A stretch of 61,331 nucleotides of DNA from the IMG/VR virus record IMGVR_UViG_3300045988_137383, positions 1-61,331 of that record; one strand, given 5' to 3'. Of the stretch, positions 23,655 to 61,331 are shown piece by piece (position 1 is the first letter of the stretch; the number at the start of each line of letters is the position of its first letter). A program made the translations under genes and the position numbers. Origin of the DNA: a virus. The notes under the pieces are model-generated. The model did not search any database and was not told the DNA's origin. It was given only the letters and a program-made list of their open reading frames with translations.

Positions 23655-23667
23655 AAAAATAGATAAT

Positions 23668-23925: not shown

Positions 23926-24049
23926 ACTCAAGCGGAGAAATCTTTGTAGCAACAAACCATCCTCACAAGGACGAGAAAACTGCTAAATTGGCAGTATCTG
24001 ATAAATCAAATGTTGTGGCCACCTGCAAAATAACCTGGGAGGAATAATC

Positions 24050-24505: not shown

Positions 24506-24509
24506 CATT

Positions 24510-24806: not shown

Positions 24807-24812
24807 GTGTTT

Positions 24813-25219: not shown

Positions 25220-25221
25220 AT

Positions 25222-25389
25222 ATGACCAACGAAGAATTTAAGAAAATCCCGTTCAAATATGACGGTGACGGGAATCCGGTAACATTCGGTGAAGCCGGGA
25301 CGTTTTTCACAAGGGAAGAGCGCAGGAAAATCAAAAGGCTCATCGAAAGAGGATATTCGGTGAGCGAGGCAATGAATAAAACCATCTGA
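25222..25389 (+). CDS. small hypothetical protein, 55 aa
   Basis: MTNEEFKKIPFKYDGDGNPV...; 2-nt gaps on both sides. Confidence 0.4.
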   Translation: MTNEEFKKIPFKYDGDGNPVTFGEAGTFFTREERRKIKRLIERGYSVSEAMNKTI

Positions 25390-25391
25390 TT

Positions 25392-25691
25392 ATGAAATTT
25401 GAAATACCAGCAACATTCACGCTCGGCGGTGTGGAGCACGTTGTCGAGATTCAGCAGGTGGTAGGGTATGAACAAGATTTTGGGCAATACGATCCTGCCA
25501 GGAAGGTTATACAAATAGCCCTGACAAGCAGGGGCCGGGTCTTGCCGCAGTCATTTCAGCAGCAGACCTTCCTTCACGAGCTTGTCCATGCCATACTGAA
25601 CACGATGCGAAAGGATGACTTATATGATGACGAGTCTTTCGTCAATACTTTCGCTTCCTTTCTCAACGAGGCTATCAACACGATGGAATAG
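25392..25691 (+). CDS. small putative zinc metallopeptidase
   Basis: HELVHAI (HExxH) motif. Confidence 0.55.
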   Translation: MKFEIPATFTLGGVEHVVEIQQVVGYEQDFGQYDPARKVIQIALTSRGRVLPQSFQQQTFLHELVHAILNTMRKDDLYDDESFVNTFASFLNEAINTME

Positions 25692-46300: not shown

Positions 46301-48144
46301 TTGTTCAGTTTCTCGGCTATATCTTTGAATGCCTCCTTGGTCTTCTCGCTTAAACTTTCGAGAACTGTATCAAGGAACCTCTCTTTGGCGGCGTTCTGTA
46401 TGGACACTGACAGCCTGTCATACACCCCAACCAACTCGCCGATAGCTATGTTCTCCTTGTCCACGGCGGAAAGATACGACCCATAGTTGTTCAGTATCGC
46501 CGCCTTCGCCTTGTTGTATTGCTCCGTGCCTTTTTCTGCACGCTCCAGAGAACGCCATAGTACATTGAGCTTTGTGGTCTCCTGTGCCACGTACCCATTG
46601 AACTGCGTGATGGCATTATTGGCCGCGTCCTGCACTTGCTTCTGCTCCTTCAGCCTTTTAATCACTTCGTATATAGCGAAACCTGCCGCCAAAGCAGTCG
46701 AAGCGAGCAAGGCATAAGGGTTCATCTTCCTGAGTGCGATGACCCTCATAATCCTGTAAGTCCTCTCTATGGACTTCACAAGCGTTCCGTTCGCGACGGC
46801 GGCGACAAGGGCACCGGTCTTGTACACGCCGAACACAACGACTATCTCCTTCAGGACGCGCCCCAGATCCTCGTAGTTGCGCACCGCCGACAGGGCGGTG
46901 TCCACGATCCCGTGGAAGAAGCCCCTGTTACCCTCCCCGATGGAGAACAACATCTGCTCGTAGGCGTCCTTCAGCTTCATCACCTTGCCCTTAAGGGTCT
47001 CGGACAGCACCGACTGCATGTCGAAGAACTTGCCGCCCTCGCTCGTGAGGTCCTTCAGGACCTTGGCCACCATCTCGAACGGGACCTCACGCTTGCTTAT
47101 CTTGTCGAACACCTCTCCAACGCTCACGACCCTGCCCTCAAGCTCGGTGAACTGATTGGCGAGTTCCTGCAGCAGCGGCACTCCGGCCTCGGTGAACTGC
47201 CTCACCTCCTGCCCCCTGAGGAAGGAGGCGGACCTCACCTGCCCGTAGGCGAGGATCATGCGGTTCATGTCCACGCCGAGACCCGCCGAGACATCTGCCA
47301 GCATCTTCGTGGTGTCGTACAGCTCGTCGAGGGGCACGGAGAACGCCGAGAGCTGCTTGGCGTAGGACGTGACCTCGGAGAAGGTGTACGGCGACTGCAC
47401 GGCCAACTTCTGGAGCTTGCCGAACAGGGCGTCCGCCCCCCGCACGTCCTGGACTATGTTGCGCAGGGCCATCCTCTGCATCTCGAACTCGCCCGTCACC
47501 CTGATTATCGAGCCGAGGAAGCGCGTCACGCCCTGCACGGAGAAATAGGCGGCCGCCATAGTGGTCAGCTGCTTGAGAAGGCGCGACTGTTTGCTCATAG
47601 AATCTTGGGCCCTCTGCGCGGCCGCCGCCGTCTGCTGCTGAGCCTGTTTCAGCCTCTCGGCGGCTATGGCCGATTTGGTCTGCTCCGTCTGGAGTCTCAC
47701 CTGAGCGGCCGCCGTGCGCTCCGCGGCAGTGCGGACACGCTCCGCCGCCTCCGCCGACCGGTTCGCCTCCGTGGTCGTACTCTGTTGCGCGAGACGTGTC
47801 CTCTCCTGGGCCTCGGCGGCTCTCTGGTATGCCTCCGCGGCCTTGTTCTGCGCGGCGGATGCCTTGCTCTGCGCCACGGCCGTCTGCTGCACGGCCTGCT
47901 TCACCTTTTCCTGCGCCGCGGCCGCCACGGCCGCCGCCTGGGCGCGCTTCGCCTCTATGTCAAGGGCGCGCTTCGCGCTGGCGGCATCGGAGGCCGATAT
48001 GGAGTTCAGCCTCTGCTTCACGGTGAGCAGAGCGGACAACTGCACGTTCGCAGCCTTCGCCGCCTCGATGTCCTTCTTTATCTTCGTGTTGAAGTCAACG
48101 TCATCCAGTATGACCTTGAAGTTGAGATTGTCTATGTTAGCCAT
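43351..48144 (-). CDS. tail tape measure protein, 1597 aa
   Basis: size, A/E/K/Q-rich coiled coils, central hydrophobic segments, position. Confidence 0.92.
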   Translation of the reverse strand: MANIDNLNFKVILDDVDFNTKIKKDIEAAKAANVQLSALLTVKQRLNSISASDAASAKRALDIEAKRAQAAAVAAAAQEKVKQAVQQTAVAQSKASAAQNKAAEAYQRAAEAQERTRLAQQSTTTEANRSAEAAERVRTAAERTAAAQVRLQTEQTKSAIAAERLKQAQQQTAAAAQRAQDSMSKQSRLLKQLTTMAAAYFSVQGVTRFLGSIIRVTGEFEMQRMALRNIVQDVRGADALFGKLQKLAVQSPYTFSEVTSYAKQLSAFSVPLDELYDTTKMLADVSAGLGVDMNRMILAYGQVRSASFLRGQEVRQFTEAGVPLLQELANQFTELEGRVVSVGEVFDKISKREVPFEMVAKVLKDLTSEGGKFFDMQSVLSETLKGKVMKLKDAYEQMLFSIGEGNRGFFHGIVDTALSAVRNYEDLGRVLKEIVVVFGVYKTGALVAAVANGTLVKSIERTYRIMRVIALRKMNPYALLASTALAAGFAIYEVIKRLKEQKQVQDAANNAITQFNGYVAQETTKLNVLWRSLERAEKGTEQYNKAKAAILNNYGSYLSAVDKENIAIGELVGVYDRLSVSIQNAAKERFLDTVLESLSEKTKEAFKDIAEKLNKVFDRAHITSDEAKAELSSYVSGILGFKDLSKEAQSYVKWARRIIAQNGKDSNVIKYTLAELELLREKYEDLGISADKTAMAVGNVADKIRAKETAEAAANLQDWQKEVNAALEKAEGEAAKKSGNMIKSSSQDLTDYIDKLRKSYKTLTESVANASPNYQKNEIEQWKKDLEGVEAVAKLLKIDLNKATFKDLTTDKPDKLTERQKAQRAEIQATVQVVNKLKDAYEQLKAAIPGSMLGEAMKALFPDISSSLRDNFDYDEQLRGLADQLRLIPGEADNADKIIANMGKDATKAMTDAFEAAEKFVEEIKSLTSKDFAIDGKGVAFDISKIVTDLRSKNNKVDLNIEGIREEFEAAKTNELAMKALRVKYGEEFWQKYIEGGDKALTELANKEKEYNRKKAQERVNDLAKRYVSENIGKGKGIDLTDLSQKSLRQIADLIAKIKEAMKDLDLSDLGLSDETIKNLGDAKLTLDDFKEAVKALLGGDLERLNDELKEKLISSFEKLPSKLSGAADAFDELGEAFDNVDFSGITDGLRAFSTIADNMIKGAKAGMQLASSMDKVGDAAEKVSDNTEAGAKAGGAWGAIAGLLVGVATVMISKLKAEKEAKERAKQATLEYTNSLALLKLQIDETAYSSVFGENTFGKMGEYFAKSKEALKAYNTALSDFKDEMSDLGGIGPFSAFLNNGALTPLIPEIKGFEKYSAKLREMGVSVWEEDGAFNAEKAKAYLDANYDIDDSLKSQIQHLIDLKEKYDEIQDALDNMVNTLVGSLAGDMVDSFLDNFKRVGDAVDDLDSAFQNLGETILKSMLQSYVIDEILDQFGPKVKDMFKQYSEGSISAEDVADRTASLADDIRKKTEDAADIINAIIGSFDNVNLLTKEANQTSGTLSDGIKAVTEDTASLLASYINAIRADVSFAKTQRERVLEILRSAFPSSPTLAEHLAQIQANTYNTAVATQEMLAEFRGVLAPHSEGGNGVKVVTE

Positions 48145-50414: not shown

Positions 50415-50821
50415 CAGTTCTTGACTTCCTTGACCCAGACGTTGGTGCCGAGGTTGAACGTGGTCTGCTTGACCACCTCGCACCTGTAAACCCTCGTGTA
50501 ATCCTCCATCACAAGTATGTCGCCCGGATCGAGGGGCGTGAGGAACATCGGACAGGCGAGCCGGTAGTCCGACTCCTGCACGTCCCCCGCCGCCCTCGTG
50601 TTCTCGGACGATGTCCTGTACCCGAAGGACATCTCACTGACCCACTCCGTCAGGAAGGAGCCGTCGGGATTCCTGACGGGCTCCCAGTCGGACATCACGC
50701 AGGCCTCCAGAAGCACGGGCTCGTAGACCGGATCCCCCCTGTCATCGACTCCGGGATCTCCGTTCTCGTCCAGCCTCGCCCTGAACGCCTTGAATGTGAA
50801 TGGGAAACGTGGGTTGTACAT
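50414..50821 (-). CDS. head closure / head-tail adaptor protein (by position)
   Basis: 135-aa ORF in the connector cluster. Confidence 0.5.
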   Translation of the reverse strand: MYNPRFPFTFKAFRARLDENGDPGVDDRGDPVYEPVLLEACVMSDWEPVRNPDGSFLTEWVSEMSFGYRTSSENTRAAGDVQESDYRLACPMFLTPLDPGDILVMEDYTRVYRCEVVKQTTFNLGTNVWVKEVKN

Positions 50822-50836
50822 CTGGTGTATCGGTTT

Positions 50837-51196
50837 CTAATACAGGTCTCTCATAGTGAATCCTCCGGCGGTGGCCTCCTCGGCCTTGTCAGACTCCCAC
50901 TTGGCGTAGAGCCTCTGGGCCATCTGGCGCAACCCCGCCCGGTCGACGACATTCTTCGCCGCCTTCTGGTGCTGCCACCCGCCGTCGGACACATACTCCC
51001 CGGTCGAGGACGACGAGGAGGACGCGAGCCACATATAGAGGTCGGCGAGGCAGAGGTCCCGCTCCCTCTGGCCGACCTCCGGCACTGGAGCGCCGGAGGC
51101 CACGCCGTTGTTGAACAGGATCGCCCTCACGGTGCCGTCGGGGACGTTGTAGTCAACCATCCCCGGAAGCCACTGGTCTATCGTGTAGTCCGCCAT
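50837..51196 (-). CDS. head-tail connector protein (by position)
   Basis: 119-aa ORF directly after the capsid gene. Confidence 0.5.
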   Translation of the reverse strand: MADYTIDQWLPGMVDYNVPDGTVRAILFNNGVASGAPVPEVGQRERDLCLADLYMWLASSSSSSTGEYVSDGGWQHQKAAKNVVDRAGLRQMAQRLYAKWESDKAEEATAGGFTMRDLY

Positions 51197-51212
51197 GCCT
51201 CCCCTCCGTCAG

Positions 51213-52385
51213 TTAGGCCGAGTAAGGATGGAAGTAGTAGAAGTGCTGAGGCACCGAAGGCACGACAAGCGATGTCATCTCGGTGTTGAAGCTCTGGCAC
51301 TTCTTCACGTAGTCGGCGCCCACGGTGAGCAGGAGCCTTCCCCCGTAGTAGGTCGCGTAGTCGCCGCCGCCGATGGCGATAGGCTCCACGGTCTTCACGG
51401 TGCCTATGGTTCCGTCAGGCACGAGCACGAGGACGTTGCCCTCGAACGCGCGGAACGACTTCCTTGAGAGCGTCTTCGAGTCGTTGTCCCACTTCTCCAC
51501 GGCCACGATCGAGTCGATGACCTTGACGGGCACGCCCACGATCCTCTCGAAGACGGCCTTCTTCACGTCGTCCCCCTGCACGGAGGCCGATGAGGCCTGC
51601 ACGCCCGCGTCCGCGGTAGGGAAAAGGTTCGCCCCGATGGCGGCGAGCACCTTCGAGTGACCGAGGACGACATCAAAGAAGTCGCTGTCCACCTCGATGT
51701 GCATCGACACGCCTGTCTTCCTCTTGGCGGCCTTGATCCAGTCCTTGAGGTCCTTGATCGGGTTGGCCGAGGTGCCCTCGGTGTCGTATGTGCTGTCCGT
51801 CCACCATCTCTTGGCACCCGTGAGGGTGGTGATGTTGGCTGAAGGCACGTGGGCGGCGAAGGTCTGGTTGACGATGCCGTTAGGGTTGTTGGTGTCGGTC
51901 AGCTCGAACTTGCCCCTCGACACGACCTGATGCCTCTGGTAGGTCAGCGAGTTGGTGTGCCCCCCGATGAGGGTGTCGATGGTGACGAATAGGTTGTTCC
52001 GGGCGGCGTCAACGACCCTGCTGGAAGTGGCCCCGAACCGCTGCTCAAGGATGTACTGCTTGCGCAGCTTGTCCTCGTTGAAGTACTCGACCATCTTCAT
52101 TCTCGGGATCTTGCCCGTGGTGAGCTGCACAGGCTCCCTGCTCACAGGCTTGGCCGGTGAGTCGAGGTCCACGTAGGTCGCCATCACGTTCAGGCCGACC
52201 TCGCCCTGAAGCTGCTCGTAGGTGAAGTCGAGCTGCATGTCCGGGTCAAGCTCGAAGCCGTCCAGCTGGAGGCTGTTGTACTTGTTGGGCATCACCTCGT
52301 CGATGTAGCCCTGGAGCCTCGCCGGGTCGCTGCCTCCCAGAGCCCTGGAAAGCAGGTCGTAAAATTCCAAAGTGTATGTCTCCAT
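51213..52385 (-). CDS. major capsid protein
   Basis: 390 aa, between the scaffold/decoration genes and the connector genes. Confidence 0.75.
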   Translation of the reverse strand: METYTLEFYDLLSRALGGSDPARLQGYIDEVMPNKYNSLQLDGFELDPDMQLDFTYEQLQGEVGLNVMATYVDLDSPAKPVSREPVQLTTGKIPRMKMVEYFNEDKLRKQYILEQRFGATSSRVVDAARNNLFVTIDTLIGGHTNSLTYQRHQVVSRGKFELTDTNNPNGIVNQTFAAHVPSANITTLTGAKRWWTDSTYDTEGTSANPIKDLKDWIKAAKRKTGVSMHIEVDSDFFDVVLGHSKVLAAIGANLFPTADAGVQASSASVQGDDVKKAVFERIVGVPVKVIDSIVAVEKWDNDSKTLSRKSFRAFEGNVLVLVPDGTIGTVKTVEPIAIGGGDYATYYGGRLLLTVGADYVKKCQSFNTEMTSLVVPSVPQHFYYFHPYSA

Positions 52386-52408
52386 ATCTCTTTCTGTTTT
52401 TTTAGGGT

Positions 52409-53035
52409 TTAGCCGTTCACCTGGATCACGCCCGGCACTGCGGCCTTCATCGCGGCGGCGATGTCAGCGGACGGCGTGCGGTCGATCAGGATTCCCTCGG
52501 CGTGTGACATCACCGCGGCTCCGGACGCGCCCGCGCCCTCGTCATCCGCGTCGATGTCTCCGAGGTAGATGTCGTTGTACAGGTAGGCGTTCGGGGTCAC
52601 GTTGGCCTCCGCGCTGATGATGACCTTGCTGCCGGCCTTGGCCGAGGCCACGGTGGCGGTGAGGTCAAGCTGCGACGGCGTGGCCGCGTTGGCCGAGGCG
52701 TCCGTAACCTTCACCCCGTCGCCCGCCGGGAAAGTGTCCCCAACGAGCCTGACGTACATGTCCTTGCCCGGTGTGAATCCCGGATGCTCGGACGGGTCGA
52801 TGGTCAGCACACCGGAGGCGTAAGCCTTGACGGTGTAGACCAGCGCCGGCGTGATCACCCTGTCCTTTAGCTGGATGGGCGTGCCGGCCGGAAGGAGAAG
52901 TCCCGCCTTGACGTATGCCTTGGCGAGAGAGCCTCCCACAGGATAAGGGGTCACTGTTCCGAGCCAGACCGGTATGTGCCGTCCGCCGAAACCTTCCCTC
53001 TTCTGCCCGAAGGCGTTGAATGAGCTCTGCTTCAT
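52409..53035 (-). CDS. head decoration or capsid-associated protein
   Basis: 208-aa Ala/Gly/Val-rich beta protein between the scaffold and the MCP. Confidence 0.45.
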   Translation of the reverse strand: MKQSSFNAFGQKREGFGGRHIPVWLGTVTPYPVGGSLAKAYVKAGLLLPAGTPIQLKDRVITPALVYTVKAYASGVLTIDPSEHPGFTPGKDMYVRLVGDTFPAGDGVKVTDASANAATPSQLDLTATVASAKAGSKVIISAEANVTPNAYLYNDIYLGDIDADDEGAGASGAAVMSHAEGILIDRTPSADIAAAMKAAVPGVIQVNG

Positions 53036-53060
53036 TTCTCTAATCGGTTTTGGTTGAACT

Positions 53061-53714
53061 TTACTTCTGCTGCGGGAGCTTGCCCTCGGACCTCAGCCTC
53101 TCGACCTCGCCTGAGAAGTCGCCCCTCTTGTAGCCCTCCGGCTGGCGGCTGCCGCTCCTCGGAGCCGGGCCGTCCCCGTAGAACCTCTTGTAGGCCTCGT
53201 CGTAGGAGGCCACGCACCTGTCAACAAGCGTGTCGGCTGTGTCGGTCTCCGCGATCTGGAGATCCTTCAGGATAAGGTCGAGAACCGGCTCGCAGTCCGA
53301 ACCCTTGTCTTTCAGCCTCTTCCTGAGTTCCGCGGTTATCCCGCCATTGCGTTCCCTCGCCATCACCTTCGTGTAGTTCTCCTCCAGCTTGTCGAAGCGC
53401 TCCTTGAGTTCCTTGAGCGCGGCGTCATTTTTCTCGGAGCCCTCCCCAGGTTTCGGGTCGGTCTTTCCGGATCCCGCCTCCCTCAGTTCGTCAAGGCTCC
53501 TCTGGAGCTCCGTGTTCCTCGCGCGGAGACTGTCCTGATCGCCCTGTATCGCCCTGACGAGCGCGGCCACATCGTCGCCCGCAACGGCGGCTTCGATGTC
53601 CTCCTCCTTGGTGACGGTTTTTTCCAGGAACGCGGCAACCCCGTCGAAAGCCTTCTCCCCCAACCCGATGTTCTTGTACCTCGTTTTGAGGGCTGCGATG
53701 ATCTTCTGTTTCAT
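53061..53714 (-). CDS. scaffolding protein
   Basis: ATG at 53714 (MKQKIIAALKTRY); helical, E/K/D-rich; first gene of the head operon. Confidence 0.65.
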   Translation of the reverse strand: MKQKIIAALKTRYKNIGLGEKAFDGVAAFLEKTVTKEEDIEAAVAGDDVAALVRAIQGDQDSLRARNTELQRSLDELREAGSGKTDPKPGEGSEKNDAALKELKERFDKLEENYTKVMARERNGGITAELRKRLKDKGSDCEPVLDLILKDLQIAETDTADTLVDRCVASYDEAYKRFYGDGPAPRSGSRQPEGYKRGDFSGEVERLRSEGKLPQQK

Positions 53715-53748
53715 ATTGACCCAAAATGATTTAACCTGCCGCAAAGGT

Positions 53749-53806
53749 GGGGCTCCGCCTGATATAAAGTGTGATAATTATTACACTTTATAACACGGCT
53801 GTCCGC
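53749..53806. promoter_or_regulatory. nested palindrome in the divergent late control region
   Basis: CCGCAAAGGTG...ATAAAGTGT-gataattatt-ACACTTTAT...CACCTTTGCGG. Confidence 0.6.
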
Positions 53807-53819
53807 ACCTTTGCGGACG

Positions 53820-56549
53820 ATGAGAGAGGAGACCATAGACACAGAGAAGTACCTTGACCCCGTGTTCCTGAGACACGGCCAGAGGGTGTACACCTACGAC
53901 CTCGTGGAACGCATCCGGGAGGACAACCTCAGCCGCAAGAAGGACGGCAGGAGGATATTCAACATGTGCCCCCAGGCCGGCTTCCAGGAGAAGGTGCTAA
54001 CCACACAGGCGGACATCAAGATAGTGGGTGGAAAGAGAGGCGGGGGGAAAATGCAGCCTTTAGATTGTAAAATCGTAACTCCCTTTGGATTAAGGCGTTT
54101 GGGTGATATTAAAATAGGAAATATCATCTCCAATCCTGTTTCGGGGGGAATGGAAAGAGTTATCCAAATATTTGAACATAAGGGTAAAGACGTGTATCGC
54201 TTGATATTCTCAGACGGGACATCAACAGAATGCGGACTTGAACATTTATGGCTGGTACACAGGACTAATTTCGTCTATAAAAGCAGACTGATAAACGGCA
54301 CTGGGAAAGAAGACGCTTGGAGGGTATGGACATTTGCGCAAATAAAAGATTTTCTGGACAAGCAAAAAACTGGAGAGTTTAAAGCAAAACAAAAAAACAA
54401 TTTGATTGTGCCACTATGCGAGCCGGTAAAATTCACAAAAGGCGCATCCAGAACCAAAATAGCGACAAATCCGTATTTGATAGGGGCGTTGATTGGTGAC
54501 GGACATCTCGGCAAGGAGATAAGGCTAACCTCAGCGGATGAAGAGATTGTAAACGAGTTCGTGAAGCGCGGCGTTGATATGTCGCACTTTACAACAGCAC
54601 CCGAAAATAAGGCAAGGGATTATAAAATCCACGATCGTACCATAAGAACCGATATTGATACATTACGCCTCCGTTATACGCTTAGCGGTGAAAAGTTCAT
54701 CCCAACGAGATTTCTCTACGGCACCGTGGACGAACGATTCTCACTAATTCAGGGCCTTATGGATACCGATGGATATGTCAGTGCCGACGGGAAGTGCTAC
54801 TACACTACAATAAGCAAGAGGCTGGCGGAAGATTTCAGATTTGTGATAGAATCCCTTGGCGGCACTGCAACCATAACGCAAAAGAAGGCTGGATACAAAA
54901 AAGACGGGGAATATATACAATGTAATGACGCATACGAGATATACATCCGCATACGTGACGCGCATAGGTTGTTCAGACTTTCGCGCAAGAAGGAGAGATG
55001 TCACCCTAATAACGGTGGAGCATCTGTGCCGGGCAGAAGGATAGTCGGATATGAATATGTCGGGAAAAAGGACTGTCGTTGCCTTACGGTGGATTCAAGG
55101 GATTGTCTTTATATGACAGACGATTTCATAGTCACCCACAACACCTATGTCGGCCTCTACGAGTTCCTTCCGTACATCTTCAACCCCGACGTGAACGGCT
55201 ACGGATTCCGAAAGTATGAGGACGACATAGCCCGAGGCATCTGGAAGTCCTCGAAGCAGGTTTACCGATGGCTCGGAAGCCCCGCAGACACCAGCTTCGA
55301 GTGGAAGTTCCTGAACGGGCGCGGGGCCACGATGAAGATGGAGCACCTCCAGGACCCGAAGAAGATAGCCGACCGGTTCAGGGGCGTGGAGATGGCGTTC
55401 GTGCTGATAGAGGAGCTGGCCGAGCACACAAGGGACGACCTTGACGTTATATTCGACCTTCTCGCCTCGAACCGAACCACGTCCGGCGTCAGGCCCAAGT
55501 TCATCTGCACCTGCAACCCGGTCGGCAAGTCCAACAAGCTAAGGCTTCTCCTCGACTGGTGGATAGACCCCGACACCAACAGGGCGATTCCGGAGAGGGA
55601 CGGGAAGGTCAGGTACTTCTACCGCTACGGCAAGGACGTGAGCGAGATGGTCTGGGGCGACACCCCAGAGGAGGTCTACAACAACGCCACCGTCCACTCC
55701 AAGATAGACAATCTCTGCATAAGCACCGGCTCGTCCTACAAGGACTTCATCACCTCCATCACGTTCATCAACGGAGAGTTCAAGGACAACAAGATACTCC
55801 AGATAAGCGACCCGAAGTATATGTCCCGAATATCCGCCAAAGGAGGCGAGGGAGTGGTCAACGACATCGAGGGCATCTGGCAGGACATGGACTCGGGCAC
55901 CTCGATGCTGTCAGCCGAGGACATGTCCCTCCTCTTCGACAACACCGAGCGCAGGGACGGATTCATGCGCGCCTCCGCCGACGTGGCGCTCACGGGCGAC
56001 TTCTTCGTCATCTTCGCGTTCGACGGCCACCACATCGCCGACATGGAGGCGTGGAGGGGCGTGCCCACGGACGCGGTGGAGACGTTCGTCAGCAAGTTCC
56101 TCGAAAGGAACGGCGTCAGGCAGGAGAACTTCACCTACGACTCCAACGGACTCGGCCTGTGGCTCAAGGACGCGTTCCCCGCAGCCGTGCCGTTCAACAA
56201 CAAGTCCCAGTCGAGCAACTCCCTCCTGTGGAACAACCTCAAGAGCGAGTGCGCCGAGAAGTTCGTCAAGGACGTGAAGTCGGGGCTCTTCTCGATAGAC
56301 TCCCGCATACTTCAAAGACGGTTCACGGACTCGAAGGGCAGGTCGTTCACGGTCGCGGACAGGCTCGTGGAGGAGAGGCGCGCCATAAGGCGCAAAGACA
56401 GCGACGGAGGGCGCTTCGAGATAATATCCAAGCCCCAGATGAAGGCGGAGATAGGACACTCCCCGGACTTCATCGAGGCGCTGTTCATGGTCGAGCACCT
56501 GTACGCCATCAAGAGGAGGTGCGTGCGCACGGGGTTCGAGAACTGGTAG
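53820..56549 (+). CDS. terL: terminase large subunit interrupted by an intein
   Basis: first ATG at 53820 (the track start 53811 is TTG); exteins give Walker A GKRGGGK|T; C-terminal nuclease-half region follows; portal gene is next. Confidence 0.88.
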   Translation: MREETIDTEKYLDPVFLRHGQRVYTYDLVERIREDNLSRKKDGRRIFNMCPQAGFQEKVLTTQADIKIVGGKRGGGKMQPLDCKIVTPFGLRRLGDIKIGNIISNPVSGGMERVIQIFEHKGKDVYRLIFSDGTSTECGLEHLWLVHRTNFVYKSRLINGTGKEDAWRVWTFAQIKDFLDKQKTGEFKAKQKNNLIVPLCEPVKFTKGASRTKIATNPYLIGALIGDGHLGKEIRLTSADEEIVNEFVKRGVDMSHFTTAPENKARDYKIHDRTIRTDIDTLRLRYTLSGEKFIPTRFLYGTVDERFSLIQGLMDTDGYVSADGKCYYTTISKRLAEDFRFVIESLGGTATITQKKAGYKKDGEYIQCNDAYEIYIRIRDAHRLFRLSRKKERCHPNNGGASVPGRRIVGYEYVGKKDCRCLTVDSRDCLYMTDDFIVTHNTYVGLYEFLPYIFNPDVNGYGFRKYEDDIARGIWKSSKQVYRWLGSPADTSFEWKFLNGRGATMKMEHLQDPKKIADRFRGVEMAFVLIEELAEHTRDDLDVIFDLLASNRTTSGVRPKFICTCNPVGKSNKLRLLLDWWIDPDTNRAIPERDGKVRYFYRYGKDVSEMVWGDTPEEVYNNATVHSKIDNLCISTGSSYKDFITSITFINGEFKDNKILQISDPKYMSRISAKGGEGVVNDIEGIWQDMDSGTSMLSAEDMSLLFDNTERRDGFMRASADVALTGDFFVIFAFDGHHIADMEAWRGVPTDAVETFVSKFLERNGVRQENFTYDSNGLGLWLKDAFPAAVPFNNKSQSSNSLLWNNLKSECAEKFVKDVKSGLFSIDSRILQRRFTDSKGRSFTVADRLVEERRAIRRKDSDGGRFEIISKPQMKAEIGHSPDFIEALFMVEHLYAIKRRCVRTGFENW
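54051..55142 (+). mobile_element. intein (364 aa) with a double-motif LAGLIDADG homing endonuclease, inserted in the TerL P-loop
   Basis: LIGALIGDGHL and LIQGLMDTDGYV; C-terminal IVTHN|T; clearly AT-richer than the flanks; the N-terminal boundary is inferred from restoring GKT. Confidence 0.8.
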
Positions 56550-56571
56550 TCAAACCTAACAATCAAAGAAT

Positions 56572-58080
56572 ATGAAGATTCCGAGAATAGAAACGATGAG
56601 GCCGGAGGATATCCTCGTCAAGGAGGCTTTCAAGAGGACGCTCCCTTCGGACAGGCTCACGCCCGGAGGCGGCACCTACCGCACGGGGAACGGCGGCGCA
56701 ATCGACTCGCCGTCTACCGACTCGCTCAGGTTCGAGCTGCTCACGCAGTCCGACTTCCTCAGGGAGTACGACGTGAACTCCCACAGGATAAACTCCATGA
56801 AGTACTACCCGAACCCGTTCTCCAAGGACGAGAGCGGGCGGTACAGGCAGAAGATCAAGACGAGGATAGCGATAGCCTTCCAGGAGCGCATCTTCACCAA
56901 GAGGCTCACCACGCTCATAGGCAACAGCGTGAACTTCCGCATCGCCAACTCCGAGGCCTCCCCGTCCGACCAGAGGACGCTGGCCGCCTTCCGCGAGGGA
57001 TGGCAGATGAGGAATATGGAGAACGCCCTCTACGAGGCCATAGCCGCGGACGGCAAGACGGGGGACTGCGCCCTCGCCTTCTGGCTGAGCGGAGGCAGGA
57101 TGGGCTGGAGGTCGTTCTCGTTCGAGAAGGGCGACACGCTCTATCCGCACTACGACCCGCTGACAGGGCGGCTCGCCCTCTTCGGGAGGAGGTACAGGGC
57201 GCAGGGTGATGGCGGTGTCGGTATGACCGAGTACCTCGACGTGTGGGACGACACCCGATACTGCCGCTACCGGATCCACGCGGACGGGAGGAAGGCCGCC
57301 TCGTGGATCATCGACCAGGAGCCGATACCGCACAACTACGGGCGCGTCCCGATAGCCTACGACCGCTACGGGGCCCCGTTCTGGGCGAACTCCCAGAGCC
57401 TCATAGAGGCCTACGAGACCGCCATAAGCCAGCTCGCGGAGAACAACGCAGCCTACGCCCTCCGCATCCTCTACTCGTTCGGAGAGTCGATGAATATGCA
57501 GGCCACGCTCGACGGAACCCCGACAAGGATAGACTCCCCGAGCGCGGACGCCAAAATCGGCTATCTGGAGCCGGCTGACGCGTCAAGCTCGTTCACCCTC
57601 CAGCTCACCGCTCTGGAGAAGAACATAATGAAGTCCTCGTTCGCGGTGGAGACACCGGAGATAAAGTCCGGCTCCGATATGTCCTCCCTCACCGTCAAGA
57701 TGCTCTTCGCGGACTCCTACCAGAAGGCGTTACTGGACGCGCAGCACTTCCAGCCGTTCCTCGACGACGTGGTGGAGCTCTTCCAGCACGGCTACGGCGT
57801 GGACTCGGGCAGGGTCAGCGAGTTCTCGGCGTTCAGGGTGAAGGCCGAGATATTCCCGTACATCTTCATGTCGGAAACAGAGCAGGTCAGCAACATCCTC
57901 CAGCTGAGGTCAGCGGGCGCGCTGTCAAGGCAGACCGCCTCCGAGCTCGGCTATGAGCTGGGCTTCGGCGTGAACTCGGAGTACCAGAGGGTACTCAACG
58001 AGGAGCATGACGCGCTCACGGGCGCCGCTTCCGTGTCCGGCAACACTGTCAACGACTTCCGCAACAGACAGGCAGAATGA
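56572..58080 (+). CDS. portal protein
   Basis: 502 aa, immediately after TerL and before the MuF-like gene. Confidence 0.8.
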   Translation: MKIPRIETMRPEDILVKEAFKRTLPSDRLTPGGGTYRTGNGGAIDSPSTDSLRFELLTQSDFLREYDVNSHRINSMKYYPNPFSKDESGRYRQKIKTRIAIAFQERIFTKRLTTLIGNSVNFRIANSEASPSDQRTLAAFREGWQMRNMENALYEAIAADGKTGDCALAFWLSGGRMGWRSFSFEKGDTLYPHYDPLTGRLALFGRRYRAQGDGGVGMTEYLDVWDDTRYCRYRIHADGRKAASWIIDQEPIPHNYGRVPIAYDRYGAPFWANSQSLIEAYETAISQLAENNAAYALRILYSFGESMNMQATLDGTPTRIDSPSADAKIGYLEPADASSSFTLQLTALEKNIMKSSFAVETPEIKSGSDMSSLTVKMLFADSYQKALLDAQHFQPFLDDVVELFQHGYGVDSGRVSEFSAFRVKAEIFPYIFMSETEQVSNILQLRSAGALSRQTASELGYELGFGVNSEYQRVLNEEHDALTGAASVSGNTVNDFRNRQAE

Positions 58081-58820
58081 CAAGGGAGAGTTCGGCGAAA
58101 GAGATGGAGAAGGTCCGGGGAGACGTCGAGCGGCGCGTCTGGGACGCTTCCAAGGCCATACTCGCCCTCGCCGAGGCTTACAGATACCTCGGAAAAACGT
58201 TCACGTTCTCGTTCAACGACGACCTCGACACGCAGGTCAACAGGATCCTCCTCGAACTGTCAGACGACCTTATGGCCGACAACAACGCGAGGGTGATGCA
58301 GACCGTATCCGACGCGGAGTCCGACCTCGGCGAGGTGGAGGAATACGTGGACAGGGAGCAGGGAGGCAGGGACAGGACGGAGCGCTACGACTGGTGGTGC
58401 TCGCGGCTGAAAGACTCACTGGAGTTGTGGGCTAAGGCCGGCTTCGCGTGCGGCCTCGCAGCCACCGCCATACTCTCCCAGATGAGGGCGCACTCGGCCA
58501 ACCCGTCAGGGTCCGGTCTCTGGAGCCGTTCCGGAGTCCAGCCGCCGCAAGGGTTCGGACAGGGATATTCAGCCGACATCATAGGCGGACTCACGCTCAC
58601 GGGGCAGAACTCCGTCAACGAGGCGTTCCAGTACGCCGCGCTGCTTGAGCTGAGGGGGATGGGCGACGTCACGGGCTACAGGGTCGTGCGCGGCTCGTCC
58701 TTCGACTGCGGGCACTGCGACGACCTCTGCGTAGGGGTCCATCCCCTCACCGAGATATGCCTCCCGGCTCATCCGAGGTGTATGTGCCGCATCGTCCCCG
58801 TGAGAAAGGGCGAGGGATAG
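58077..58820 (+). CDS. minor head protein (Mu F / SPP1 gp7-like)
   Basis: C-terminus FDCGHCDDLC...LPAHPRCMCRIVPV; ATGA overlap with the portal stop. Confidence 0.75.
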   Translation: MTRESSAKEMEKVRGDVERRVWDASKAILALAEAYRYLGKTFTFSFNDDLDTQVNRILLELSDDLMADNNARVMQTVSDAESDLGEVEEYVDREQGGRDRTERYDWWCSRLKDSLELWAKAGFACGLAATAILSQMRAHSANPSGSGLWSRSGVQPPQGFGQGYSADIIGGLTLTGQNSVNEAFQYAALLELRGMGDVTGYRVVRGSSFDCGHCDDLCVGVHPLTEICLPAHPRCMCRIVPVRKGEG

Positions 58821-58930
58821 AAATCAAGTCCTCTGGCGCACAGATGCAAGGCAATGCGAACAAGTGCCCCTCCGAAAGGAGAAACCCCGCCACAGCCCAA
58901 GGAAACAGCCAATGGCGGCAAAAGAAAAAA

Positions 58931-58962
58931 GCCCCGTCCGCGCGTCACCGCGAAGACGGGGC
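58931..58962 (-). terminator. intrinsic terminator between convergent units
   Basis: GCCCCGTC-N16-GACGGGGC; the minus strand is followed by a T-run. Confidence 0.6.
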
Positions 58963-59009
58963 TCAAACGTACTTATGAGTTTATAATAGATGGAATGAAA
59001 AGAACCTTC

Positions 59010-59132
59010 CTACCAGTCAACGGAGACCGTCCAGAAGAGCCACCCGAACGCCACGCAGCGGCCGGGAAACAGTATGTCTATGTAGGGGAGGAGGCTCACC
59101 GTCCCCGGCATCCTGCCAAGACTCACCCTCAT
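59010..59132 (-). CDS. small hydrophobic peptide, 40 aa
   Basis: ATGA coupling to the upstream stop; MRVSLGRMPGTVSLLPYIDILFPGRCVAFGWLFWTVSVDW. Confidence 0.3.
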   Translation of the reverse strand: MRVSLGRMPGTVSLLPYIDILFPGRCVAFGWLFWTVSVDW

Positions 59133-59542
59133 AGCCCTCCCTCCGTTTTCTCCGCCGCCTTGGCGAACTCCCCGCGGGCCGCCTCGTCAAGCATCGCCTC
59201 CGCGAGCTCCTTGTCCTGATCCGCGTCCTTCATTACGCCGTACATCTCCGGATGCCTCTCCGCGCACTCCTTGCAGAGCCTGTTGACACCGCTCAGGAAC
59301 TCCATGTCAGGTACGACACTCAGGAAGTTCCACGTCACGGCTATGATGCCCCTCAGGCCTTCCTGATTCTCTTTGGCCATATACTCCAGCATCATCCCCT
59401 TCGGGAGCGACTTCGACACGGAGAAGAACACGCTCCCCGCCATGTCCCTCACCTGCATCATGCCGCCCTTGTCCGCGAGGACGAAATTGCCTACCCTCGT
59501 CTCCCCGGCCTGGAGCCGGATCTTGCCTCTACTTATCTTCAT
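59129..59542 (-). CDS. hypothetical protein, 137 aa
   Basis: ATG at 59542 (MKISRGKIRLQAG). Confidence 0.65.
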   Translation of the reverse strand: MKISRGKIRLQAGETRVGNFVLADKGGMMQVRDMAGSVFFSVSKSLPKGMMLEYMAKENQEGLRGIIAVTWNFLSVVPDMEFLSGVNRLCKECAERHPEMYGVMKDADQDKELAEAMLDEAARGEFAKAAEKTEGGL

Positions 59543-60887
59543 CGCTATCGTTTTTGTAAAGAATATACACAACCTCGGCGCCCCTCAGCCTGCACACCCC
59601 GAGCGAGGCCATCTCCCTCGTGATGTCCGTCTTGGTCACCGCGCCCCTCAGCTCGCTGTATATGTGGCTCTGCGCCACCCTCAGCGGATGCTGCCCCGAG
59701 TGCCTCGGCTCCGGATAGAGGCCGTTCCTCTCCAGCCACCTGCTCACCGGACTGGCAGCGGCACGCGCCTTGCGCTTTATTACCTCGAGGTCCTTGTCCA
59801 TAATATCGCACGGGGTGAACGCGCCGCCGTTCGCAGAGAGCCGCCTCGCGCCCTCGTGGATCCACCGGAACACCCCCGGAAGCTCGTTCGCGGCTATCCT
59901 CGCCGCAAGCTCCCTGTCCTGCCTGTCCGGCGGTATCGTCACCCCGAAGCGGAACACCAGCAGCCTCCGGAAGAACGCGTCCGTCACGTCCCTGAAGGCC
60001 GGCATCTCGTTCAGCGCGAACACCAGCGGGGGACACTTGACGACCACGTTGCCCTCGTACAATTTCCACCCCTGCACCTCCTGCGAGGAGGCGAGAGCCT
60101 TCAGCGCGGAGTCGAAGGACGCGCCCTTGCGCACGTCGGGGGCGAAGTTCACCACCTTACCCCTCAGCGTCACCGCCTGCTTCGGGTCCGCCAGCTGGTC
60201 CGGGGAGAGGAAGCCCACCTTGTCGAGCCCCATCACCGCCTTCACCACGTCAAACACCACGCTCTTCCCGTTGGCCCCGCCACCCACGAATATCGCCATC
60301 TTCTCCACGCTCACCGACCGCCTGTCTATCAGGCACAGCCCGAAGAACTCCTGCAAACACGCCCGCTCAGCCTCATCCGGAACCACCTCCGAGAGGAACG
60401 CCTCCCACTCCGGGGCCTCCGGCCTCCCCTCCCCGTAGGCGTAACCCATCCGCCACGTCACAGGCAGGGACGGGGAGTGCGGCGACCTCCTCCCCGTCCG
60501 CAGGTTCAGCACGCAGTCGTCGAAACGCACCAGCATCGGGTCCGACTCCACGGACATGTCCCACAGCACCGACAGCGGAAGGTCCGCCATCCTCCTGACA
60601 TCCGAGGCCCCGACACCCAGCGAGTACAGGACATTGGCCAGCGTCATCATCAGCGCGTCCCTGCGTATCGGGGCGTAGCACCCGTCCTCGTAGTGCGACA
60701 GCTCCCCGTCCACATACCTCAGGCCGGAGTCGGACACGCACCCGCGCACCTCCGCGCACAGCGCGTCCACCCTCTGAGAGGCGGACTGCACGTGGCCAAG
60801 CGTGTCGAAGGCGGCCTTCCTCCTCCCAAGAAGGGAAGATAGCTCAGCCCTCAGCGCAGGGCACACCGGCGACACCTTACTCCCCAT
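59529..60887 (-). CDS. SF3 (D5 / P4-primase C-terminal type) helicase
   Basis: Walker A FVGGGANGKS; D5_N-like region upstream; ATG at 60887. Confidence 0.8.
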   Translation of the reverse strand: MGSKVSPVCPALRAELSSLLGRRKAAFDTLGHVQSASQRVDALCAEVRGCVSDSGLRYVDGELSHYEDGCYAPIRRDALMMTLANVLYSLGVGASDVRRMADLPLSVLWDMSVESDPMLVRFDDCVLNLRTGRRSPHSPSLPVTWRMGYAYGEGRPEAPEWEAFLSEVVPDEAERACLQEFFGLCLIDRRSVSVEKMAIFVGGGANGKSVVFDVVKAVMGLDKVGFLSPDQLADPKQAVTLRGKVVNFAPDVRKGASFDSALKALASSQEVQGWKLYEGNVVVKCPPLVFALNEMPAFRDVTDAFFRRLLVFRFGVTIPPDRQDRELAARIAANELPGVFRWIHEGARRLSANGGAFTPCDIMDKDLEVIKRKARAAASPVSRWLERNGLYPEPRHSGQHPLRVAQSHIYSELRGAVTKTDITREMASLGVCRLRGAEVVYILYKNDSDEDK

Positions 60888-61256: not shown

Positions 61257-61331
61257 CTTTTTTTTTCGCAATAACGGTCACGTTTCGATTATTTCCTTCA
61301 CTCAAAGAAACCAAGTCAATATGAACAGACA
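61257..61331. repeat. terminal direct repeat, copy 2
   Basis: identical to bases 1-75. Confidence 0.97.

What the first reader, a model, noticed from the sequence alone, without database searches (positions are those of the whole stretch)
54051..55142. Intein in the TerL P-loop with class-3 (WCT) hallmarks and no N-terminal Cys
An in-frame, visibly AT-rich insert splits the terminase Walker A: ...GGKRGGGK | MQPLDCKIVTPFG ... DDFIVTHN | TYVGLYEF. Only excision from Met-81 to Asn-444 restores GKRGGGKT. The first intein residue would then not be Cys, Ser or Thr. The insert also shows the non-contiguous class-3 triplet. Trp sits two residues after the block B His (GLEHLW). Cys replaces the usual block F Asp (DCRCLTVD aligned to vYDLtVe). 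Thr precedes the terminal HN (IVTHN). Two LAGLIDADG motifs (LIGALIGDGHL and LIQGLMDTDGYV) mark a homing endonuclease. Class 3 inteins are rare, and one sitting in a packaging ATPase P-loop makes virion assembly depend on splicing.
Basis: partly seen in the sequence, partly recalled or inferred. Interest (0 to 1): 0.65.

Follow-up and report, generated by a model that had tools for sequence, protein, structure and literature searches.

The report
Class 3 intein splitting phage terminase P-loop
The packaging ATPase (large terminase) gene of this roughly 61-kb gut-type phage is interrupted, between the Lys and Thr of its ATP-binding loop, by a 364-residue self-splicing intein with a homing endonuclease; the intein has every sequence hallmark of the known "class 3" splicing type, so this is a correct call on an ordinary member of a large, already described family.

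Summary
Window 54051-55142 is an in-frame, 364-codon, low-GC insert (GC3 0.46, against 0.82 and 0.89 in the flanks) in the TerL gene (53820-56549). Five intein-free TerL alleles are 95-97% identical to the exteins and have exactly the spliced length (545 aa). They read GGKRGGGK|T/S, so MQPLD is intein sequence and the canonical Cys1 reading is refuted.

The insert has Met1, His65/Trp67 (block B:10/12), Cys344 (F:4), Thr362-His363-Asn364 (G:5-7) and Thr+1. These residues align one-to-one with the founding, biochemically characterised class 3 intein of mycobacteriophage Bethlehem, and with the class 3 crystal structures 6BS8 and 6RIX. W, C, T, H and N are invariant in 46 relatives, while residue 1 varies (A, V, E, M, L, C in the 29 TerL-family inteins). 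A confident AlphaFold model matches PI-SceI-type inteins.

The kind is already known. Class 3 inteins were described in phage terminases and ATPase P-loops in 2009-2016. A search of 1.84 billion representatives gave 10,610 related clusters at E<=1e-10. Among the best 136 full-length domains, 122 show all hallmarks and 11 start with Met.

One local point is worth noting: nearly identical phage genomes carry no intein, this intein, or a 51%-identical one at the same site.

Verdict: supported; new member of a known kind; low to moderate interest.

The parts
53820..56549 (+). TerL (large terminase) precursor gene: 909 codons plus stop. The ATG at 53820 is the probable start; the mechanical ORF begins at the TTG at 53811.
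   Evidence: ORF list. Homologues start MREETID/MKEETID. The spliced product passes the Pfam Terminase_6N gathering score (30.9 vs 22 bits) and matches PHROG 979 terminase large subunit at E 5e-48. The SPP1-type portal gene follows at 56572-58080.
53820..54050 (+). N-extein, 77 aa, ending in the first part of Walker A (GGKRGGGK). Lys is the -1 residue.
   Evidence: Junction fixed by intein-free alleles P0001, P0002, P0004, P0006 and P0007. GC3 is 0.82.
54051..55142 (+). Intein, 364 aa, Met1 to Asn364: HINT splicing domain interrupted by a double-motif LAGLIDADG homing endonuclease.
   Evidence: Absent from 95-97% identical alleles. GC3 is 0.456. Pfam LAGLIDADG_3 and Hom_end match. AlphaFold2 model has pLDDT 92.1 and pTM 0.90. 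Foldseek best hits are PI-SceI (E 2e-15), TliVMA and PI-PfuI inteins.
54051..54089 (+). Block A (MQPLDCKIVTPFG). Residue 1 is Met, so there is no N-terminal nucleophile.
   Evidence: T10, P11 and G13 are invariant and residue 1 is variable (A12, V11, M2, E2, C1, L1) in the 29 TerL-family inteins. Met1 aligns with residue 1 of the class 3 intein 6BS8 and of the Bethlehem intein.
54216..54257 (+). Block B (GTSTECGLEHLWLV): His65 (B:10) at 54243-54245 and Trp67 (B:12, the W of the WCT triplet) at 54249-54251. Also the near-invariant Cys61.
   Evidence: H65, L66 and W67 are invariant in 29 sequences, and H65 and W67 in 46 sequences. The residue numbers are the same as His65/Trp67 of the Bethlehem and Msm DnaBi1 class 3 inteins (PMC2807308; PMC6195587).
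54477..54503 (+). LAGLIDADG motif 1 (LIGALIGDG), with Asp150.
   Evidence: G145 is invariant, and G149, D150 and G151 are conserved in at least 90% of sequences.
54744..54773 (+). LAGLIDADG motif 2 (LIQGLMDTDG), with Asp240.
   Evidence: G235 and G241 are invariant, and D238, T239 and D240 are conserved in at least 90%. Pfam LAGLIDADG_3 covers residues 229-307.
55071..55115 (+). Block F (DCRCLTVDSRDCLYM): Cys344 (F:4, the C of WCT and the predicted initiating nucleophile) at 55080-55082, and the conserved aromatic Tyr354.
   Evidence: C344 is invariant in 46 relatives. It aligns with Cys320 of the Bethlehem intein, and Tyr354 aligns with Phe330. It also aligns with the block F Cys of 6BS8.
55122..55145 (+). 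Block G (DFIVTHN|T): Thr362 (G:5, the T of WCT), His363, Asn364, and Thr+1 (55143-55145), which is also the Walker A Thr.
   Evidence: T362, H363 and N364 are invariant. The +1 residue is Thr in all 29 intein-bearing TerL alleles.
55143..56549 (+). C-extein, 468 aa plus stop: the rest of the ATPase domain and the nuclease domain of TerL.
   Evidence: Collinear with intein-free TerL homologues. GC3 is 0.887.

Best explanation
This is a mobile class 3 intein that carries a LAGLIDADG homing endonuclease. It sits between the Walker A Lys and Thr of the large terminase of a circular phage genome of about 61.3 kb, probably one that infects Bacteroidales.

TerL is translated as a 909-aa precursor in which 364 residues separate GGKRGGGK from T, so the ATP-binding loop is broken.

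The mechanism below is inferred from the class 3 pathway established for the Bethlehem intein:
(1) The thiol of Cys344 (block F:4), helped by His65 and Trp67 of block B, attacks the Lys(-1)-Met1 peptide bond. This makes a thioester branched intermediate on block F.
(2) The N-extein is passed by transesterification to the hydroxyl of Thr+1.
(3) Asn364 cyclises, assisted by His363, and releases the intein.
(4) An O-to-N acyl shift forms the native Lys-Thr bond. This restores GKRGGGKT and an active 545-aa terminase.

The released intein is a site-specific endonuclease. It should cut intein-free TerL alleles at this site during co-infection and copy itself in by repair (homing).

Shown here: the exact junctions, the insertion polymorphism, the conservation of all catalytic residues, the fold, and the foreign base composition. 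Inferred: that splicing occurs, that Cys344 is the nucleophile, and that the endonuclease is active.
For: Junctions: intein-free alleles of 545 aa at 95-97% identity read GGKRGGGK|TYVGLYEF or |SFIALYEF.

Class 3 hallmarks: Met1, H65, W67, C344, T362-H363-N364 and T+1. These are invariant in 46 relatives whose host proteins include TerL and PhoH, while residue 1 varies.

Alignment to characterised inteins: I extracted the 341-aa Bethlehem intein from AY500153. It reproduces the published positions (Pro1, Ser62, His65, Trp67, Cys320, Thr339, His340, Asn341, Gln-1, Thr+1), and all of them align with the window's residues (PMC2807308). PDB sequence hits include 6BS8 and 6RIX/6RIY (class 3) and 6RIZ (gp41-1 engineered with WCT) (PMC6195587; PMC7664689).

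Fold: the model has pLDDT 92 and matches PI-SceI at E 2e-15. Its N-terminal 70 residues superpose on 6BS8 at 1.2 A rmsd.

Mobility: GC3 is 0.456 against 0.82-0.89 in the exteins. The closest foreign intein (61% identity, P0118) lives in a low-GC phage (GC3 about 0.40). Against L008, DNA identity is 96-100% in the flanks, falls to 53% exactly inside the intein, and returns to 100% at the C junction. The inteins of the window and of Parabacteroides phage PF672P1 are 36.6% identical, but their exteins only 26%.

Endonuclease: both LAGLIDADG Asp residues and the KFIP Lys are conserved.

Dependence on splicing: the unspliced protein falls below the Pfam terminase threshold (19.7 bits), and the spliced one passes (30.9 bits).
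Against: No biochemical evidence exists for this protein; the class is assigned from sequence signature and homology only. PMC7664689 shows that grafting WCT onto a class 1 intein does not make it splice, so the triplet alone is not sufficient proof of mechanism.

Block B:7 here is Gly. It is Ser in the Bethlehem intein, and Asp in the DxxH motif of Msm DnaBi1 (PMC6195587), so the active-site details may differ.

One relative (P0078) has Cys at position 1 together with WCT. This shows that the family tolerates an N-terminal nucleophile.

The cluster of synonymous differences just upstream of the site (7 in 25 nt against intein-free L007) is not a clean co-conversion signature, because another intein-free allele (L011) shares the intein-type tract.
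Confidence: 0.88

Rival explanations
1. It is a canonical class 1 intein that begins at the Cys at 54066 (CKIVTPFG...), with MQPLD belonging to the N-extein.
For: A Cys lies five residues into the insert.
Against: All 83 intein-free homologues that could be parsed go straight from GK to T or S, with no MQPLD-like segment. Position 6 is S, T, A or C in relatives. With Met as residue 1, T10, P11 and G13 fall in register with block A of the Bethlehem intein, 6BS8 and gp41-1. The GC3 drop starts at the Met codon.
Confidence: 0.01
2. It is an intein that splices by another non-canonical route: class 2-like direct attack of Thr+1 on the N-terminal junction, or use of a different Cys (Cys342, Cys61 or Cys6) as the first nucleophile.
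For: There is no N-terminal nucleophile. Several extra cysteines lie near the active-site blocks (C61 near-invariant; C342 present in 16 of 46). No biochemistry exists for this subfamily.
Against: The class 2 examples named in PMC2807308 are the KlbA inteins, in which Cys+1 makes the attack and which lack the WCT triplet. Here WCT is invariant and +1 is Thr or Ser. C342 and C6 are not conserved, whereas C344 is invariant. In the Bethlehem intein the aligned Cys320 is absolutely required (PMC2807308).
Confidence: 0.05
3. It is a decayed or non-splicing insertion. The terminase would then be a dead gene in a defective phage, or the insert would be tolerated as a domain.
For: The sequence comes from an uncultured source and viability is unknown. 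Arth_1007 is a published example of a class 3-like intein that is a pseudogene (title and abstract of PMC3196547, seen).
Against: The frame is intact over 909 codons. Every catalytic residue of both the splicing and the endonuclease domains is conserved. A 99.7% identical intein occurs in P0003, a 90%-identity cluster of 83 member sequences. The genome assembles as a circle with a full structural module. A 364-aa insert between the Walker A Lys and Thr is incompatible with ATP binding, so selection would remove a non-splicing copy (inference; the same argument is made in PMC5050341).
Confidence: 0.04

Closest known systems
Mycobacteriophage Bethlehem 'DnaB' intein (MP-Be DnaB; called TerL1-c, gp10 in PMC5050341; gp11 in GenBank AY500153). 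This is the founding class 3 intein.
   Same: It is a full-length intein with a LAGLIDADG endonuclease in a phage large-terminase gene. There is no N-terminal nucleophile (Pro1 there, Met1 here). His65 and Trp67 have the same numbers; Cys320 aligns with Cys344, Phe330 with Tyr354, and Thr339-His340-Asn341 with Thr362-His363-Asn364; both have Thr+1. Splicing, the obligate block F Cys and endonuclease activity were shown experimentally for it (PMC2807308, PMC5050341).
   Different: Identity is only about 25%. It is inserted in a poorly conserved helix (site c), not in the P-loop (PMC5050341). Block B:7 is Ser there and Gly here, and it lacks the Cys at B:6. The host is an actinobacteriophage.
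P-loop (Walker A Lys|Thr) inteins of phage terminases and other NTPases, e.g. mycobacteriophage TerL1-a and the PhoH and DnaB P-loop inteins.
   Same: The insertion point is identical, between the invariant Lys and the nucleophilic Thr/Ser; PMC5050341 calls this the 'classic' P-loop site. [quoted passage not shown] The annotated terminases of Rhodobacter phage RcTiptonus, Methanosarcina virus MetMV, Aphanizomenon phage CL131 and Klebsiella phage YC1 all show GK|x...HxW...C...THN|T/S.
   Different: The extein family differs (a Terminase_6N-type TerL of Bacteroidales-type phages). I could not establish from the text which class TerL1-a belongs to.
Parabacteroides phage PF672P1 gp65 (OP172819.1, annotated 'hypothetical protein').
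   Same: This is a cultured phage of similar genome size (59.4 kb) with the same local gene order. Its TerL carries a homologous intein at the same GK|T site, with EDHLW, ECRCIKVS and VVTHN|T. The inteins are 36.6% identical.
   Different: The exteins are only 26% identical. The genome is low-GC, and its intein matches the host composition (GC3 0.40 against 0.41-0.43). Its residue 1 is Ala.
Msm DnaBi1 (PDB 6BS8) and MchDnaB1 (6RIX/6RIY) class 3 mini-inteins.
   Same: The class 3 active-site residues align (His65, Trp67, block F Cys, Thr-His-Asn). The N-terminal 70 residues of the model superpose at 1.2 A rmsd with 30% identity.
   Different: They are bacterial mini-inteins with no endonuclease. 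The redox partner Cys48 of DnaBi1 aligns with Val48 here (PMC6195587).
PI-SceI (VMA1 intein) and PI-PfuI.
   Same: The overall two-domain architecture is the same, HINT plus double LAGLIDADG. These are the best structural matches (E 2e-15 to 2e-10, TM 0.60-0.69).
   Different: PI-SceI is the textbook canonical intein that starts with Cys1 (my own knowledge). Sequence identity is 14-17%.

Membership tests
Intein (HINT protein-splicing element) | In-frame insertion that is precisely absent from otherwise collinear homologues of the host protein | tested here: met
   P0001 and P0002 (97% identity) and P0004, P0006 and P0007 (95-96%) are 545 aa, exactly the precursor minus 364 aa, and read GGKRGGGK|T/S.
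Intein (HINT protein-splicing element) | Splicing blocks A, B, F and G, with the block B His, a C-terminal His-Asn, and a Ser/Thr/Cys at +1 | tested here: met
   H65, H363, N364 and T+1 are present. G13, H65, H363 and N364 are invariant in 46 relatives. They align to solved inteins.
Intein (HINT protein-splicing element) | HINT fold | tested here: met
   AlphaFold2 model with pLDDT 92.1 and pTM 0.90. Foldseek hits PI-SceI, TliVMA, PI-PfuI and 6BS8.
Intein (HINT protein-splicing element) | Autocatalytic excision with ligation of the exteins | not testable with these tools
   Needs expression plus SDS-PAGE and mass spectrometry.
Class 3 inteins (Tori et al. 2010, PMC2807308) | No Cys/Ser/Thr at intein position 1 | tested here: met
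   Residue 1 is Met. It is variable in relatives (A, V, E, M, L, C). Among the 136 full-length domains from the best representatives it is A52, G24, L13, P12, M11.
Class 3 inteins (Tori et al. 2010, PMC2807308) | Trp at block B position 12, two residues after the block B His | tested here: met
   H65-L66-W67, invariant. It aligns with Trp67 of the Bethlehem intein and of 6BS8.
Class 3 inteins (Tori et al. 2010, PMC2807308) | Cys at block F position 4 | tested here: met
   C344, invariant in 46 sequences. It aligns with Cys320 of the Bethlehem intein.
Class 3 inteins (Tori et al. 2010, PMC2807308) | Thr at block G position 5 | tested here: met
   T362, invariant. It aligns with Thr339.
Class 3 inteins (Tori et al. 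2010, PMC2807308) | Ser or Thr (rarely Cys) at +1 | tested here: met
   Thr+1 in all 29 intein-bearing TerL alleles. Among the 136 representatives it is S69, T65, C2.
Class 3 inteins (Tori et al. 2010, PMC2807308) | Block F Cys is the obligate first nucleophile, giving a thiol-labile block F branched intermediate | not testable with these tools
   This is a mechanistic criterion. It needs C344A/S, T+1A and N364A mutants and thiol-sensitivity assays.
LAGLIDADG homing endonuclease (double-motif, intein-borne) | Two LAGLIDADG motifs with conserved acidic residues in one chain | tested here: met
   LIGALIGDG (D150) and LIQGLMDTDG (D240). Pfam LAGLIDADG_3 E 3.5e-12 and Hom_end E 3.9e-6, both above their cut-offs. 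Conservation shown.
LAGLIDADG homing endonuclease (double-motif, intein-borne) | Endonuclease fold | tested here: met
   Foldseek matches I-DmoI and I-Tsp061I (E about 1e-6 to 1e-5) and the endonuclease-bearing inteins.
LAGLIDADG homing endonuclease (double-motif, intein-borne) | Site-specific cleavage of the intein-free allele | not testable with these tools
   Only indirect support: presence/absence polymorphism in genomes that are about 95% identical at the DNA level, and foreign base composition.
Phage terminase large subunit (Terminase_6N type) | Match to the terminase ATPase profile with an intact Walker A, in a packaging-gene context | tested here: met
   The spliced protein scores 30.9 bits on PF03237 (cut-off 22) and matches PHROG 979 at E 5e-48. 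Walker A GKRGGGKT is restored. The SPP1-type portal gene lies immediately downstream and the major capsid gene is nearby.

The most novel reading that the evidence does not exclude
The cysteines clustered around the catalytic Cys344 are Cys61 at block B:6 (present in at least 90% of 46 relatives, often followed by a second Cys at B:7) and Cys342 at F:2 (16 of 46). They could form a redox- or metal-sensitive switch, like the Cys48-Cys118 disulfide that reversibly blocks splicing of the class 3 DnaBi1 intein. Terminase maturation, and therefore DNA packaging, in this presumed anaerobe-infecting phage would then depend on reducing conditions. That would make the intein a post-translational checkpoint rather than a purely selfish element.
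Probability: 0.1. Interest if true: 0.55.

Novelty: new member of a known kind. Interest (0 to 1): 0.27.

Why it matters
For annotation: this gene and its relatives, including the TerL of the cultured Parabacteroides phage PF672P1, are deposited as 'hypothetical protein', and the unspliced protein falls below the Pfam terminase threshold. Recognising the intein recovers the terminase.

For biology: it adds a Bacteroidales-type gut-phage lineage to the known hosts of class 3 P-loop inteins. It also offers a natural three-state population: an empty site, this intein, and a 51%-identical intein at the same site, in genomes whose flanking DNA is about 95-96% identical to the window's. Intein homing, replacement and possible target-site immunity could be studied there.

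It does not reveal a new mechanism or a new kind of element.

Tried and rejected
(1) Megablast of window 40000-61331 against 50,697 phage records found no match. The phage is therefore not close at the DNA level to any deposited genome; only protein-level relatives exist.

(2) Co-conversion tract. There are 7 synonymous differences in the 25 nt upstream of the site against intein-free L007, and the same tract is shared with intein-bearing L008. This looked like a homing footprint. However, intein-free L011 carries the same upstream tract, so I do not claim it.

(3) Cys6/Cys342 covariation as a possible disulfide. This is rejected: C342 is common without C6 (16 against 3 of 46).

(4) A search for a second intein in the window, using an HMM of 29 inteins against all six-frame ORFs, found only the TerL hit. 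The DnaB helicase at 16274-17665 matched only DnaB-family helicase Pfam profiles, with no intein or endonuclease domain.

(5) I tried to learn from PMC5050341 whether the mycobacteriophage TerL1-a (Lys|Thr) inteins are class 1 or class 3. The main text does not say, and I did not open the supplements.

(6) The word-indexed protein search with the intein alone oddly did not return the TerL-family inteins found. The exhaustive search was used for the family size instead.

(7) In alignment A1, 'M1' is listed as nearly invariant. This is an artefact: the query's Met aligned to the start Met of the full-length proteins. It was ignored.
Full report
**Observation.**
The longest ORF in the region runs 53811(TTG)/53820(ATG)..56549 on the + strand. 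Its translation reads ...IVGGKRGGGK MQPLDCKIVTPFG ... DDFIVTHN TYVGLYEF.... The segment 54051-55142 is 1092 nt (364 codons), in frame and free of stops. Its composition differs sharply from its surroundings. GC is 0.437 against 0.576 for the N-extein and 0.593 for the C-extein. Third-position GC is 0.456 against 0.818 and 0.887 (profile). Only the residue numbers are affected by the start codon: counted from the TTG they are 81 and 444, but homologues begin at the ATG three codons later, which gives 78 and 441.

**Fixing the junctions.**
I searched about 5.8 billion proteins with the conceptually spliced 545-aa protein. This returned 780 relatives. The closest intein-free ones are P0001 and P0002 (97% identity) and P0004, P0006 and P0007 (95-96%). 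All are exactly 545 aa and read IVGGKRGGGK|TYVGLYEF or |SFIALYEF. Among the 120 best hits, 83 intein-free proteins that could be parsed have GK followed directly by T (69) or S (14). Twenty-nine alleles, including the window's own, carry a 364-381-aa insert at this point, always followed by Thr. MQPLD is therefore intein sequence, not extein. The alternative of a canonical intein starting at the Cys at 54066 is excluded. No other excision frame reproduces the intein-free sequence.

**What the insert is.**
- Pfam finds LAGLIDADG_3 (E 3.5e-12) and Hom_end (E 3.9e-6) inside the insert.
- A sequence search of the PDB returns inteins: gp41-1 (6RIZ, 6QAZ), the M. smegmatis DnaB intein 6BS8, the M. 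chimaera DnaB intein 6RIX/6RIY, PI-PfuI and PI-SceI.
- According to the papers, 6BS8 and 6RIX/6RIY are class 3 inteins, and 6RIZ is gp41-1 engineered to carry the WCT triplet (PMC6195587, PMC7664689).
- An AlphaFold2 model built on a 46-sequence alignment is confident (mean pLDDT 92.1, pTM 0.90).
- Its best structural matches are the endonuclease-bearing inteins PI-SceI (E 2e-15, TM 0.69), TliVMA and PI-PfuI. Next come free LAGLIDADG enzymes (I-DmoI, I-Tsp061I). Its N-terminal 70 residues superpose on 6BS8 at 1.2 A rmsd.

**Class 3 test.**
PMC2807308 defines class 3 by four features: no N-terminal nucleophile, Trp at block B:12, Cys at F:4 and Thr at G:5. The +1 residue is Ser or Thr in almost all of them. 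The window's intein has Met1, His65/Trp67, Cys344, Thr362-His363-Asn364 and Thr+1.

For a direct comparison I retrieved phage Bethlehem (AY500153) and extracted the 341-aa insert from the gene just upstream of the portal gene. It reproduces every residue number given in the paper (Gln-1, Pro1, Ser62, His65, Trp67, Lys319, Cys320, Ile321, Asp324, His328, Phe330, Thr339, His340, Asn341, Thr+1). It is therefore the 'MP-Be DnaB' intein, which PMC5050341 calls TerL1-c. In a global alignment, all catalytic positions pair with the window's H65, W67, C344, D348, Y354, T362, H363 and N364, at 25% overall identity.

- In 29 TerL-family inteins (33-61% identical to the window's, apart from one 99.7% copy), 48 positions are invariant. 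These include H65, L66, W67, C344, T362, H363 and N364. Residue 1 is A12, V11, M2, E2, C1, L1.
- In a wider set of 46 sequences, with host proteins that include TerL and PhoH, the invariant positions are G13, H65, W67, G145, P218, G235, G241, G270, C344, T362, H363 and N364.

Every sequence-level criterion is met. The mechanistic criterion, an obligate block F nucleophile, cannot be tested here.

**How common it is.**
An exhaustive HMMER search of 1.84 billion 50%-identity representatives gave 16,262 hits at E<=1e-3, 10,610 at E<=1e-10 and 3,184 at E<=1e-30. These counts probably include endonuclease-only matches and inteins of other classes. In the best 150 proteins I found 136 full-length intein domains:
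- 122 show all class 3 hallmarks.
- 99 follow a 'GK'.
- 133 end in THN.
- The +1 residue is S69, T65, C2.
- Residue 1 is A52, G24, L13, P12, M11 and others.

Met1 is therefore unremarkable. In the phage record collection, 846 records match the intein, 299 of them mycobacteriophages. The annotated terminases of Rhodobacter phage RcTiptonus, Methanosarcina virus MetMV, Aphanizomenon phage CL131 and Klebsiella phage YC1 have the same GK|x...HxW...C...THN|T/S architecture.

The literature already states two relevant points. Inteins without an N-terminal nucleophile occur in DnaB, RecG, SNF2 and phage terminase large subunits, mostly in ATPase P-loops (PMC2807308). TerL is the commonest intein host in mycobacteriophages, and the Lys|Thr Walker A site is a 'classic' insertion point (PMC5050341). 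The finding is thus a new member of a known kind.

**Host gene and genome.**
- The spliced protein passes the Pfam Terminase_6N threshold (30.9 bits against 22), whereas the precursor does not (19.7 bits). It matches PHROG 979, terminase large subunit, at E 5e-48.
- Neighbouring genes are an SPP1-type portal (56572-58080), a major capsid protein E (51213-52385, minus strand) and a tape measure protein (43351-48144, minus strand).
- The window's first 75 nt repeat exactly at its end, so it is a circularly assembled genome of 61,256 bp. Relatives sit on contigs of 58-60 kb.
- The closest genome-collection hits are Bacteroidales MAGs.
- The closest cultured relative is Parabacteroides phage PF672P1. 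Its TerL, annotated as hypothetical, carries a homologous intein at the same site.

**Mobility.**
- The intein's GC3 (0.456) is far from that of its host gene. The closest foreign intein (P0118, 61% identity) lies in a phage whose whole TerL has GC3 of about 0.40. This points to recent acquisition from a lower-GC relative.
- Contig L008 (P0005) is 96-100% identical to the window in DNA on both sides. Identity falls to 53% exactly within the intein and returns to 100% at the C junction. The two inteins are 51% identical in protein. Two intein lineages therefore occupy the same site in one phage population.
- Intein-free L007 is 94.7% identical to the window's flanks.
- The inteins of the window and of PF672P1 are more alike (36.6%) than their exteins (26%).
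- The LAGLIDADG Asp residues and the conserved KFIP Lys are retained.

All of this fits active homing. Cleavage itself was not tested.

**Mechanism.**
This is inferred from the Bethlehem, DnaBi1 and MchDnaB1 work. Cys344 attacks the Lys-Met1 peptide bond. The N-extein then moves to Thr+1. Asn364 cyclises, and an O-N shift restores GKRGGGKT. Because 364 residues separate the Walker A Lys from its Thr, ATPase activity, and hence packaging, should require splicing. This is an inference, argued in the same way in PMC5050341.

**Verdict.**
The novelty is low, since this is a new member of a known kind. The local three-state intein polymorphism and the conserved extra cysteines are the only points that go slightly beyond routine.

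Noticed in passing
window 1-75 and 61257-61331: The first 75 nt are repeated exactly at the end of the window. The window is therefore a circularly assembled, complete genome of 61,256 bp.
   Followed up: yes
L008/L009/L010 (contigs encoding P0005) against window 50820-59549: These are nearly identical phage genomes (96-100% DNA identity in the flanks) that carry a different intein (51% aa, 53% nt identity, starting EMPLYTRIV) at exactly the same site. The identity break falls precisely at both junctions.
   Followed up: yes
L011:1501-3138 (P0007) and P0004/P0006, against window 55143-55157: Intein-free alleles at 95-96% identity have SFIAL instead of TYVGL immediately after the insertion site (TCGTTTATCGCTCTG against ACCTATGTCGGCCTC). 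This could be a target-site variant that resists the homing endonuclease.
   Followed up: partly
window 54231-54236 (Cys61, Gly62) and 55074-55076 (Cys342): Cys61 (block B:6) is invariant in the 29 TerL-family inteins and present in at least 90% of 46 relatives, often followed by a second Cys. Cys342 (F:2) gives a CxC with the catalytic Cys344 in 16 of 46. Neither the Bethlehem intein (Ala61) nor, by my reading of the alignment, Msm DnaBi1 has a Cys at B:6. The role is unknown; a redox or metal function is possible.
   Followed up: partly
window 53739-53816: A 78-nt imperfect palindrome (39-nt arms, 77% complementary, no spacer) fills the divergent intergenic region between the minus-strand 227-aa gene and the TerL start. 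It is a possible shared regulatory site.
   Followed up: no
window about 21100-25500: A low-GC island (0.35-0.47, against 0.57 for the whole window) holds a run of small plus-strand ORFs that I did not search. Its composition resembles that of the intein, which suggests further recently acquired DNA.
   Followed up: no
window 20457-20921 (+): This ORF has, by eye, an HNH-type motif (CAYCGKEL...DHIVP...N...CRACN). It is a possible free-standing HNH endonuclease just upstream of the low-GC island. It was not profile-tested.
   Followed up: no
window 13177-15195 (+): A 672-aa protein combines an N-terminal PD-(D/E)XK nuclease domain with FtsK/HerA-type ATPase domains. The DnaB-type helicase at 16274-17665 matched only DnaB-family helicase profiles in the same Pfam scan.
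   Followed up: no
L006:2264-5104 (OP172819.1, Parabacteroides phage PF672P1 gp65); L013:7260-9971 (AY500153 gp11): Public records annotate these intein-containing large terminases as 'hypothetical protein'. The historical 'MP-Be DnaB intein' in fact lies in the gene immediately upstream of the portal gene, i.e. the terminase.
   Followed up: yes
L003:about 2974-3010 (CAVJRU010000033.1, a metagenome bin): A related TerL in a metagenome-assembled bin also carries an intein at this site (...AQDFVVTHN|TFIALYKAL). The tblastn match starts at extein residue 78.
   Followed up: partly
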